A stretch of 1,192 nucleotides of DNA, from NCBI GenBank assembly GCA_000004985.1, contig GG739510.1. One strand, 5' to 3'. A program made the position numbers and the translations under genes. Each line of letters starts with the position of its first letter. Positions within the stretch are counted from its first letter, which is position 1. The DNA comes from Naegleria gruberi. Taxonomy: Eukaryota. The notes beneath the pieces are model-generated. The model saw nothing but the letters and a program-made list of their open reading frames with translations. It did not search any database and was not told where the DNA came from. This document shows, one piece after another, positions 1-1,192 of this stretch.

Positions 1-191
1 GAATGGTTTGGTTTCTCTGTTTTTCCTGTTAAATTATAATATTTGCCTATCACATCAAAAAATTCTTGCATTGAAAGAGAAACTTTATGGTCCTTACATC
101 CATATCTTACATATTCCTGTATTTCTTCGTTGTTGGATGTTTGGAGAGCACTGGCTAGCTCCCGCAAATTAATATTGATCAGTTTTTCCAT
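1..191 (-). CDS. 5'-partial view of a minus-strand CDS: N-terminal 63 codons starting at ATG (complement of 189-191) and running off the left edge; product unknown
   Basis: My reverse-complement translation from 191 downward gives MEKLININLRELASALQTSNNEEIQEYVRYGCKDHKVSLSMQEFFDVIGKYYNLTGKTEKPNH with no stop to position 1. The same frame is open upstream to a stop at 282-284 with no earlier ATG, so 191 is the first ATG. Sixty-three open codons in ~67% AT DNA is about p 0.01 by chance. The composition is balanced and charged (E,K,R,D,Q,Y,G,C,H), unlike the F/I/L-rich product of the overlapping + ORF. The divergent arrangement with the + gene leaves a ~380 bp shared promoter, typical for yeast. 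Caveats: -3 position is T (weak initiation context), several rare Leu/Arg codons (CTG, CTA, CTC, CGG), and only 63 codons are visible. Confidence 0.5.
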   Translation of the reverse strand, partial: MEKLININLRELASALQTSNNEEIQEYVRYGCKDHKVSLSMQEFFDVIGKYYNLTGKTEKPNH

Positions 192-417: not shown

Positions 418-485
418 GGCCAGTTTTTCTTTTTCAACACCAAGTTTTGAATTAATAGAGTATTGTAACCGCCAAATTAAGGTGA

Positions 486-505
486 AATACAGTATTTACT
501 GTATT
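486..505. repeat. 20-bp near-perfect palindrome aatacagta-tt-tactgtatt (9-bp arms, 2-bp centre)
   Basis: The reverse complement of 486-505 is identical except for the central TT/AA. Located 66-85 bp upstream of the + strand ATG, in the likely 5' leader or core promoter. Confidence 0.9.
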
Positions 506-570
506 AATGAAACAAACACAAAAGAAATAGGCCCTCCAATAGCTCACTTCTTCAAAAAAGCTTCATTCAC

Positions 571-1192
571 ATGACGAATCAAGCTGCATCAACTTCCCTT
601 AATAAGTCTGCAATGTTGAACACAAATTCCATCATGTCAATAATGAATCAAACACAACATTATCATTCCTTGGCCGATCAGACTCTTGCTGGGAATGCTG
701 CTTCTGAATTATTGACCAATAATAATAATATTCAACATTCCCAACAACAGAATGAAATCATGTCCGATGATGAATATAAACTCTTCATGTTGGAAATGAA
801 GGATCTTCATCATATCATGAAGGATATGAATAACATTGGTGATGAGAGGGAGAATGCTAGTGAAGAGTGGTGGAATTCATTGGCTCTTAATATACCTGGA
901 CCTTCCGAATCATCAATATCTTCATCTCCTAAGCAATCTTCCAATACTAATAATAATACAAGTATTAGTAGCAATAATAGTAATACTAATGAGGGTTTAA
1001 AGATAAATATGAGCCTAATTAAAGCCTTTAACGATAGTGGCACTAGTGAAAACCTTAATTTAAATAATAGCAATGATAATATTAATAATAGTAGTAAACG
1101 TGATGACGATTCCGATGATGAAGATGATGAAGAGAACGAGGATGAATTATTAACTTTATCATCATTGGCAAAATTAAGGAAATTAATTCCCA
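571..1192 (+). CDS. 3'-partial CDS (207 codons, continues past window end); N/S-rich low-complexity protein with a more complex island (aa ~60-110: SDDEYKLFMLEMKDLHHIMKDMNNIGDERENASEEWWNSLALNIPGP) and an acidic D/E/S tract (aa ~177-191); product unknown
   Basis: ATG at 571 is the first in-frame ATG after an in-frame TGA at 508-510. I hand-translated 571..1191 in frame 1 and found 207 sense codons and no stop: MTNQAASTSLNKSAMLNTNSIMSIMNQTQHYHSLADQTLAGNAASELLTNNNNIQHSQQQNEIMSDDEYKLFMLEMKDLHHIMKDMNNIGDERENASEEWWNSLALNIPGPSESSISSSPKQSSNTNNNTSISSNNSNTNEGLKINMSLIKAFNDSGTSENLNLNNSNDNINNSSKRDDDSDDEDDEENEDELLTLSSLAKLRKLIP. At roughly 0.07 stop probability per random codon in this composition, 207 open codons is about 1e-7 by chance. 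Codon choice (TTG/TTA Leu, AAT Asn, GGT, GCT, no in-frame CTG) fits yeast. It is missing from the ORF track only because it has no stop inside the window. Confidence 0.85.
   Translation, partial: MTNQAASTSLNKSAMLNTNSIMSIMNQTQHYHSLADQTLAGNAASELLTNNNNIQHSQQQNEIMSDDEYKLFMLEMKDLHHIMKDMNNIGDERENASEEWWNSLALNIPGPSESSISSSPKQSSNTNNNTSISSNNSNTNEGLKINMSLIKAFNDSGTSENLNLNNSNDNINNSSKRDDDSDDEDDEENEDELLTLSSLAKLRKLIP
718..732 (+). repeat. (AAT)5 trinucleotide repeat encoding Asn5 inside the + CDS; further (AAT)3 at 949-957 and AAT/AGT-rich runs at 961-990 and 1060-1095
   Basis: aataataataataat seen directly. In-frame AAT codons give NNNNN. The other runs give NNN and SISSNNSNTN / NLNNSNDNINNSS low-complexity segments. 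Confidence 0.9.
1099..1146 (+). other. Acidic Ser/Asp/Glu cluster RDDDSDDEDDEENEDE within the + CDS (CK2-type phospho-acceptor context)
   Basis: Translation of 1099-1146. The Ser at 1111-1113 is followed by D-D-E, which matches the established S/T-x-x-D/E casein kinase 2 consensus. Such tracts are typical of nuclear/chromatin-associated yeast proteins, but that association is an inference here. Confidence 0.4.

What the first reader, a model, noticed from the sequence alone, without database searches (positions are those of the whole stretch)
571..1192. Strongest coding signal in the window is a 3'-truncated ORF absent from the ORF track
A 207-codon stop-free frame starting at the first available ATG accounts for more than half the window. 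It encodes an N/S-rich protein with one compositionally complex island (DDEYKLFMLEMKDLHHIMKDMNNIGDERENASEEWWNSLALNIPGP) flanked by poly-Asn/Ser and an acidic tract, then a hydrophobic/basic segment (LLTLSSLAKLRKLIP) that may begin a folded domain. The track omits it because there is no in-window stop. I cannot assign a family from memory.
Basis: seen in the sequence. Interest (0 to 1): 0.5.

Follow-up and report, generated by a model that had tools for sequence, protein, structure and literature searches.

The report
Naegleria gruberi orphan gene, 5' part
The open frame is real: it is the first 207 of about 364 codons of an intronless, already deposited but uncharacterised gene of the amoeboflagellate Naegleria gruberi (not a yeast), encoding a mostly disordered protein with no detectable relatives outside that species.

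Summary
Window 571-1192 (+) is a 207-codon ATG-started frame with no stop, and no shuffled sequence reached that length (0 of 2000).

It is a real coding sequence. Its translation is 100% identical from Met76 onward to N. gruberi predicted protein NAEGRDRAFT_54897 (289 aa, on a 3793-bp scaffold). It is 96% identical over all 207 residues to NAEGRDRAFT_46302 (358 aa), which has the same MTNQAAS start.

A third copy lies on an ENA metagenome contig (L001). Against it, 6 of 8 substitutions in the ORF are synonymous (pN/pS about 0.08, p = 8e-4) and the only indel is 3 nt. The 152 nt upstream carry indels of 4, 35, 10 and 11 nt.

The guess of a fungal origin is wrong. The idea that a folded domain begins at the window's end is not supported: AlphaFold mean pLDDT is 36 and Pfam and PDB give nothing.

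HMMER against 1.84 billion cluster representatives found only the protein itself.

The full protein has these features:
- an N/Q/S-rich N-terminus
- a short acidic-aromatic helical island
- a D/E tract
- five SPK[K/Q] motifs
- a four-heptad C-terminal leucine zipper

Function is inferred only, and weakly: a dimeric, phospho-regulated nuclear regulator or adaptor.

The finding is ordinary and already in databases. One small correction: the deposited 289-aa model appears to lack its first 75 codons.

The parts
571..1192 (+). Codons 1-207 of an intronless CDS of about 364 codons (the 75 N-terminal codons seen here plus the 289-aa deposited model). It runs off the right edge of the window.
   Evidence: Purifying selection in this frame only.
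796..1192 (+). The part covered by the deposited model NAEGRDRAFT_54897 / XP_002668212.1, which starts at Met76 (MKDLHH...) and is 100% identical to the window.
571..795 (+). Codons 1-75, missing from the deposited model for this copy. They are identical to the N-terminus of NAEGRDRAFT_46302. Against L001 they show 4 synonymous and 0 non-synonymous changes.
508..510 (+). In-frame TGA that closes the frame upstream, making ATG 571 the first possible start.
419..570 (+). 5' flank (promoter and/or 5' UTR) shared with the metagenome copy L001. It is conserved in blocks but broken by indels of 4, 35, 10 and 11 nt. It contains a 7-codon uORF (ATG 507) and a perfect 9+2+9 palindrome at 486-505.
763..903 (+). 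Residues 65-111, the compositionally complex acidic-aromatic island (SDDEYKLFMLEMKDLHHIMKDMNNIGDERENASEEWWNSLALNIPGP). It is predicted helical at low confidence and contains a 21-nt tandem duplication (796-816 / 817-837, MKDLHHI / MKDMNNI).
925..936 (+). SPKQ, the first of five SPK[K/Q] motifs in the full protein. The other four lie beyond the window.
1102..1146 (+). Acidic tract DDDSDDEDDEENEDE (residues 178-192).
1147..1191 (+). LLTLSSLAKLRKLIP (residues 193-207), a short amphipathic helix. It is followed outside the window by RIPKLIPPDE and low-complexity sequence, not by a folded domain.

Best explanation
Shown:
- Window 571-1192 is the 5' 57% of a single-exon protein-coding gene of Naegleria gruberi (Heterolobosea).
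- The window matches the copy deposited as NAEGRDRAFT_54897 on a 3793-bp scaffold.
- A 96%-identical copy, NAEGRDRAFT_46302, sits on a 707-kb scaffold. It is probably the other allele of a heterozygous diploid, less likely a very recent paralogue.
- Translation starts at ATG 571, so the deposited 289-aa model lacks 75 N-terminal codons.
- The frame is under purifying selection.
- The protein has no detectable relative outside N. gruberi-like genomes, no known domain and no predicted fold.

Inferred from sequence only:
- The product is an intrinsically disordered protein that dimerises through a four-heptad C-terminal leucine zipper (d = L, L, M, L; a = Y, N, L, H, I).
- It carries five dispersed SPK[K/Q] motifs, which could be proline-directed kinase sites and/or SPKK-type contacts with AT-rich DNA.
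- Its N-terminal half, the part in the window, presents acidic-aromatic helices (DDEYKLFML, EEWWNSLAL) and a D/E tract of the kind used as activation or partner-binding motifs.

My best functional guess is a phospho-regulated dimeric nuclear regulator or adaptor. I put that functional guess at about 0.2. The 0.9 confidence given for this explanation applies to the identity and coding status.
For: Identity:
- Only three database proteins match. They are two N. gruberi predicted proteins and one ENA metagenome ORF, at 96-100% identity.

Coding status:
- 0 of 2000 shuffles reach 207 open codons.
- Against L001 the ORF has 8 substitutions, of which 6 are synonymous third-position changes. pN/pS is 0.076 and binomial p = 8e-4.
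- No other frame or strand has more than 4 of the 8 substitutions synonymous.
- The one ORF indel against L001 is 3 nt, and all indels among the three full-length proteins keep the frame to the same C-terminus.
- The adjacent 152-nt upstream stretch has four indels, none a multiple of 3.

Start codon:
- An in-frame TGA lies at 508-510.
- P0001 has the same MTNQAAS start.
- Codons 1-75 show 4 synonymous and 0 non-synonymous changes.

Single exon:
- The L001 genomic ORF (644-1732, 362 codons) is colinear with both deposited proteins.

Orphan status:
- phmmer against 1.84 billion representatives finds only the query itself.
- Pfam gives nothing at or above threshold and PDB sequences give nothing.
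- Scans of JGI metagenome, IMG/VR and GTDB contigs find nothing.

Disorder and helices:
- AlphaFold2 mean pLDDT is 36 and pTM 0.17, with helices at 66-105, 189-196, 295-304 and 321-356.

Motifs:
- There are five SPK[K/Q] motifs, against 0.01 expected, and 0 of 20000 shuffles reach five. The zipper register is from the same analysis.

Background:
- Naegleria is described as mainly a heterozygous diploid (PMC9928731).
Against: - There is no direct evidence of expression. The expression table I could reach is cut off before these gene ids, and no paper in the library mentions the accessions.
- The functional reading rests on short motifs in a low-complexity protein. Only 2 of the 5 SPK motifs meet the full CDK consensus [ST]-P-x-[KR]. 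There is no basic region next to the zipper and no clear nuclear localisation signal.
- The structural model is too poor to support or reject anything beyond 'no confident fold'.
- Allele versus paralogue is unresolved. The sequence upstream of window 419 is unrelated to what lies upstream in L001, and I could not obtain the DNA of the 707-kb scaffold.
Confidence: 0.9

Rival explanations
1. The frame is open by chance in AT-rich, trinucleotide-repeat-rich non-coding DNA, and the deposited gene models are annotation artefacts.
For: - The sequence is 33% GC with AAT/AGT-rich tracts.
- There is no homologue outside the species.
- The structural model has low confidence.
- The antisense strand also has a 126-codon open run over 813-1190.
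Against: - 0 of 2000 shuffles reach 207 open codons.
- 6 of 8 substitutions against an independent genome are synonymous in this frame only.
- All indels in the ORF preserve the frame, while the adjacent upstream indels do not.
- The frame stays open for 362-364 codons in three independent copies.
Confidence: 0.03
2. The window copy is a recent segmental duplicate (paralogue) in a different genomic neighbourhood. It is not the allele of NAEGRDRAFT_46302, and it may be drifting towards a pseudogene.
For: - Homology with the metagenome copy stops abruptly at window 418|419.
- Upstream, L001 has the end of a mitochondrial-carrier gene on the + strand. The window instead has unrelated sequence with an unannotated minus-strand ORF.
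- Seven residues of in-frame indels separate the window's 207-aa translation from P0001.
- The deposited model for this copy is shorter, at 289 aa.
Against: - The window copy is intact over all 207 codons and P0002 continues to the same C-terminus.
- The window and L001 share the KI, SGTS and N insertions relative to P0001, so the window form is not a degenerate derivative.
- In draft assemblies of heterozygous diploids, scaffolds of 3.8 kb are usually unmerged haplotypes. This is my own background knowledge, supported in part by PMC9928731.
- L001 comes from another strain, so the difference in synteny may lie between strains.
Confidence: 0.2
3. It is a fungal (CTG-clade yeast) N/S-rich protein.
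For: Only composition supports this: AT-rich DNA with poly-Asn/Ser tracts.
Against: There are no fungal hits at all. The named hits are N. gruberi proteins at 96-100% identity.
Confidence: 0.01
4. The protein is a divergent bZIP-type transcription factor.
For: It has a C-terminal four-heptad zipper with Asn at an a position, as in many bZIPs, plus acidic and Q/N-rich regions typical of activators.
Against: - There is no basic region. The sequence N-terminal to the zipper is NINLETITIPKKEYED.
- No bZIP_1, bZIP_2 or bZIP_Maf hit appears even at E <= 10.
- There are no homologues among 1.84 billion representatives.
Confidence: 0.04

Closest known systems
Naegleria gruberi predicted proteins NAEGRDRAFT_54897 (XP_002668212.1, D2W635) and NAEGRDRAFT_46302 (XP_002681301.1, D2V325)
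   Same: This is the same gene. The window is 100% identical to NAEGRDRAFT_54897 over the 132 residues they share. It is 96% identical to NAEGRDRAFT_46302 over all 207 residues, with the same start.
   Different: The deposited 54897 model starts at Met76 (window 796). The window, the 46302 copy and the metagenome copy all support ATG 571. Neither entry has a name, a domain or a mention in the literature I could search.
ENA metagenome contig ERZ929261 k127_114360 (L001), ORF 644-1732
   Same: It carries an orthologous full-length copy. The ORF DNA is about 98.7% identical, with the same insertions as the window relative to 46302 and the same stop position relative to the deposited proteins.
   Different: The 5' flank carries four frame-breaking indels. 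The sequence upstream of window 419 is unrelated. The metagenome gene caller extended the ORF to an upstream ATG, giving 402 aa.
Leucine-zipper / bZIP dimerisation helices
   Same: There is a heptad register over about 4 heptads with L, L, M, L at d positions and an Asn at an a position. The region is predicted helical, 321-356.
   Different: There is no adjacent basic DNA-binding region and no Pfam bZIP match. So it may work like a zipper, but it is not a bZIP family member.
SPKK-motif proteins (sea-urchin sperm histone H1/H2B tails; Suzuki 1989, from memory) and proline-directed kinase substrates
   Same: The S-P-K-[K/Q] motif recurs five times, and every SP dipeptide in the protein is followed by K.
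   Different: The motifs are dispersed 24-108 residues apart in a net-acidic or neutral protein, not arranged in tandem in a basic tail. Only two are SPKK or meet the full CDK consensus. Nothing was tested biochemically.

Membership tests
N. gruberi gene NAEGRDRAFT_54897/46302 (species-restricted, unnamed) | Near-identical protein sequence over the whole translated stretch | tested here: met
   100% identity to P0002 from Met76 onward. 96% identity (199 of 207) to P0001 with full coverage.
N. gruberi gene NAEGRDRAFT_54897/46302 (species-restricted, unnamed) | Same start codon and the frame continues uninterrupted to a stop | tested here: met
   The start MTNQAAS is shared with P0001, and TGA lies in frame at 508-510. 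Continuation to the stop is seen in P0002 and in L001 genomic DNA (stop at L001 1730-1732), not in the window itself.
N. gruberi gene NAEGRDRAFT_54897/46302 (species-restricted, unnamed) | Evolves as a coding sequence (excess of synonymous changes, indels in multiples of three) | tested here: met
   6 synonymous and 2 non-synonymous changes, pN/pS 0.076, p = 8e-4. The one ORF indel is 3 nt, against upstream indels of 4, 35, 10 and 11 nt.
   No fungal hit at E <= 10 in the 5.8-billion-protein word-indexed search, nor at E <= 0.001 in the full HMMER scan of 1.84 billion representatives.
bZIP transcription factors | Basic region directly N-terminal to the zipper, and a match to Pfam bZIP models | tested here: not met
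   The sequence before the zipper is ...NINLETITIPKKEYEDLKTEN. No bZIP family was reported at E <= 10.
bZIP transcription factors | Heptad leucine repeat of at least 4 heptads | tested here: met
   The best register gives d = L, L, M, L and a = Y, N, L, H, I. The region is helical in the AF2 model, but at pLDDT below 50.
SPKK-motif minor-groove DNA binders | Tandem or closely clustered SPKK/SPRK repeats in a basic tail | tested here: not met
   There are two SPKK and three SPKQ motifs, at residues 119, 227, 251, 283 and 306 of P0001. They are dispersed, and local net charge ranges from -3 to +4 per 20 residues.
CDK / proline-directed kinase substrates | A cluster of [ST]-P-x-[KR] sites in a disordered region | tested here: inconclusive
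   Two full-consensus sites against 0.25 expected (P = 0.025), and five minimal SP sites against 2.65 expected (P = 0.10), all in low-pLDDT sequence. Phosphorylation cannot be tested here.
Any curated protein family or solved structure | A match above the curated threshold | tested here: not met
   Pfam returned nothing at or above the gathering score; the best hit was DUF2703 at 12.8-13.3 bits against a cutoff of 23.6. PDB sequences returned 0 hits at E <= 1.

The most novel reading that the evidence does not exclude
The gene is a young, Naegleria gruberi-restricted invention. It would encode a dimeric regulator that lacks any classical DNA-binding domain. It would combine a minimal leucine zipper, dispersed SPK[K/Q] motifs that contact AT-rich DNA or receive cell-cycle phosphorylation, and acidic-aromatic activation-type helices. 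That would be a lineage-specific transcription or chromatin regulator, possibly tied to the amoeba-to-flagellate switch or to mitosis.
Probability: 0.1. Interest if true: 0.35.

Novelty: already known. Interest (0 to 1): 0.13.

Why it matters
The window comes from Naegleria gruberi, not a yeast, and the ORF is an already deposited hypothetical gene.
- The deposited 289-aa model (NAEGRDRAFT_54897) probably lacks 75 N-terminal codons.
- The gene is a clean example of a species-restricted, disordered protein that is nonetheless under clear purifying selection.
- Nothing here opens a long-standing question.

Tried and rejected
- **Protein families and structures.** Pfam on the 207-aa fragment, both deposited proteins and the minus-strand ORF gave nothing at or above threshold. 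The weak DUF2703, Cwf15 and NOA36 hits are compositional noise below their cutoffs. PDB sequence search gave nothing.
- **Distant homologues.** Full HMMER against 1.84 billion representatives found only the query.
- **Genomic context.** Exact-protein contig look-up for P0001 and P0002 was not on record, so I could not read the DNA of either N. gruberi scaffold.
- **Collection scans.** These all found nothing: JGI metagenome contigs (protein patterns), IMG/VR and GTDB genomes for the protein, plus a degenerate DNA pattern on JGI metagenome contigs and an IMG/VR scan for the neighbouring ORF.
- **Neighbouring minus-strand ORF.** No candidate protein shares even three 5-residue words with it.
- **Structure.** The AlphaFold2 model was too poor (mean pLDDT 36) to justify any fold search, so I ran none.
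- **RNA families.** Rfam gave only sub-threshold noise.
- **Bacterial signals.** Bacterial promoter and terminator scans are irrelevant for a eukaryote and were at background level.
- **Literature.** No paper mentions the accessions. The expression table of bioRxiv 10.1101/2024.01.08.573270 is truncated before these ids. The supplements of PMC11772885 and PMC9928731 do not list them.
- **Degradation motifs.** There is one D-box match (RTDLSILL) and no KEN box, which is no more than chance.
- **CK2 sites.** S/T-x-x-D/E sites are not enriched.

Full report
**1. The observation**

Window 571-1192 on the + strand translates to 207 codons without a stop. The stop-free frame begins at 511, just after an in-frame TGA at 508-510, and ATG 571 is the first in-frame ATG. 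It is the longest open frame in the window.

In 2000 dinucleotide-preserving shuffles, the longest open run over all six frames averaged 76 codons with a maximum of 174. None reached 207. The mechanical ORF list omits it only because ORFs that run off an end are not listed. Codon-position composition is asymmetric: 67% purine at position 1 and 46% T at position 3.

**2. What it is**

A search of 5.8 billion proteins with the 207-aa translation returned two hits, both 'predicted protein [Naegleria gruberi]'.
- P0002 is 289 aa, from a 3793-bp scaffold (XP_002668212.1, NAEGRDRAFT_54897). It is 100% identical to the window from Met76 onward.
- P0001 is 358 aa, from a 707,703-bp scaffold (XP_002681301.1, NAEGRDRAFT_46302). 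It is 96% identical over all 207 residues and begins with the same MTNQAAS.

The window therefore matches the small N. gruberi scaffold, not a yeast genome.

Searching with the full-length protein added one more sequence, P0003. It is a 402-aa bacterial-style gene call on an 1840-bp ENA metagenome contig (L001). In that contig the real ATG is at 644 and the stop at 1730-1732, giving 362 codons. This uninterrupted genomic ORF is colinear with both deposited proteins, so the gene has no intron. The window therefore holds the first 207 of about 364 codons (75 + 289).

**3. Is it really coding?**

L001 gives an independent DNA copy. Window 419-1192 aligns to L001 432-1268.
- Inside the ORF there are 8 substitutions. 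Six are synonymous third-position changes and two are conservative replacements (N88T, I116L).
- pN/pS is 0.076, with binomial p = 8e-4.
- In the other five frames at most 4 of the 8 changes would be synonymous.
- The only ORF indel is one Asn codon.
- The 152 nt directly upstream (419-570) carry 4 substitutions and indels of 4, 35, 10 and 11 nt, none a multiple of three.

Among the three full-length proteins every indel (KI, SGTS, N, S, N, TE) keeps the frame, and all end in the same ...LLQMILNNKSN.

Codons 1-75 show 4 synonymous and 0 non-synonymous differences. This agrees with P0001 that translation starts at 571. The deposited 54897 model, which starts at window 796, is probably truncated at its 5' end. 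The upstream ATG that the metagenome caller used for P0003 is out of frame in the window, where ATG 507 opens a 7-codon uORF.

**4. What kind of protein**

No curated family matches any of the sequences (Pfam). No solved structure matches by sequence. A full HMMER pass of P0001 over 1.84 billion cluster representatives found only itself. Scans of JGI metagenome contigs, IMG/VR and GTDB genomes found no relative. On present evidence the gene is restricted to N. gruberi and very close relatives.

AlphaFold2, run on an alignment of only four near-identical rows, gives mean pLDDT 36 and pTM 0.17, with no residue at 70 or above. The only secondary-structure elements are helices at 4-59, 66-94, 99-105, 189-196, 295-304 and 321-356. 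I ran no fold search because the model is too poor. The LLTLSSLAKLRKLIP segment at the window's end is followed by RIPKLIPPDE and S/P/K/N-rich sequence, not a domain.

Composition is 14% N, 14% S and 12% L. Features above chance:
- Five S-P-K-[K/Q] motifs, with 0.01 expected and 0 of 20000 shuffles reaching five. Every SP dipeptide in the protein is followed by K. One of the five lies in the window at 925-936.
- A C-terminal heptad register with L, L, M, L at d positions and Y, N, L, H, I at a positions.

Features not above chance: one D-box-like match, CK2-type sites, and the minimal SP count. Only two of the SPK motifs meet the full CDK consensus.

**5. How it most likely works**

Shown: this is a real, selected, intronless gene for a lineage-restricted protein with no confidently predicted fold.

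Inferred: the protein dimerises through the terminal zipper. The SPK[K/Q] sites are regulatory phosphorylation sites and/or weak contacts with AT-rich DNA. The N-terminal half, which the window encodes, supplies partner-binding or activation-type motifs: the acidic-aromatic helices DDEYKLFML and EEWWNSLAL, and then DDDSDDEDDEENEDE.

I therefore favour a phospho-regulated dimeric nuclear regulator or adaptor, at about 0.2 confidence. It is not a bZIP: there is no basic region and no Pfam match.

**6. Allele or paralogue**

Naegleria is described as mainly a heterozygous diploid (PMC9928731). A 3.8-kb scaffold 96% identical to part of a large scaffold is what an unmerged haplotype looks like; that reading is my own background knowledge.

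However, homology to L001 stops sharply at window 418|419. Upstream, L001 has the 3' end of a mitochondrial-carrier gene on the + strand (Pfam Mito_carr, E = 1.2e-6). The window instead has unrelated sequence. Because L001 comes from another strain, and I could not obtain the DNA of the 707-kb scaffold, I leave a recent paralogue at about 0.2.

**7. Novelty and verdict**

The ORF is already in GenBank, RefSeq and UniProt as an uncharacterised predicted protein. No paper in the searchable library mentions it.

The residual value is small: a probable correction to the 5' end of a gene model, and a tidy case of a disordered orphan protein under purifying selection. Interest is low.

Noticed in passing
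window 1-191 (- strand), overlapping a + strand open frame at 40-369: A minus-strand ORF starts at ATG 191 and runs off the left edge (MEKLININLRELASALQTSNNEEIQEYVRYGCKDHKVSLSMQEFFDVIGKYYNLTGKTEKPNH, 63 codons). It has no Pfam hit. No protein in the 5.8-billion set shares even three 5-residue words with it, so it is unannotated in N. gruberi too. At 93 open codons it is not beyond chance for this composition, so it may be spurious or an unannotated exon.
   Followed up: partly
window 418|419 versus L001 431|432: Similarity to the metagenome copy breaks off abruptly here. L001 has the end of a mitochondrial-carrier gene 84 nt upstream, while the window has unrelated sequence. This could be a rearrangement or insertion breakpoint, or a strain difference.
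   Followed up: partly
window 486-505: A perfect 9+2+9 palindrome, AATACAGTA-TT-TACTGTATT, lies 66-85 nt upstream of the start codon. It is 100% conserved in L001 (499-518) even though the surrounding 5' flank carries four indels. It is a candidate binding site for a dimeric factor, or a 5' UTR hairpin.
   Followed up: no
window 507-530: A short uORF (ATG 507, MKQTQKK, stop at 528-530) lies out of frame with the main ORF. In L001, indels totalling 56 extra nt between this ATG and the main start put it in frame, which is why the metagenome gene caller produced a 402-aa protein.
   Followed up: yes
window 796-837: A 21-nt tandem duplication (71% identical) encodes MKDLHHI / MKDMNNI inside the helical island. 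The start of the deposited 289-aa model coincides with the first copy.
   Followed up: no
window 813-1190 (- strand): A 126-codon stop-free run lies antisense to the ORF. Against L001 only 4 of 8 substitutions are synonymous in that frame, compared with 6 of 8 in the sense frame. It is best read as a by-product of codon bias in the sense frame.
   Followed up: yes
L001 1797-1840: The contig ends in GCGGTCTACAGGACTCGAACCTGTGCGGGTCTCC..., which looks like the 3' half (T-arm) of a tRNA gene on the minus strand, cut by the contig end. ARAGORN and Rfam report nothing.
   Followed up: partly
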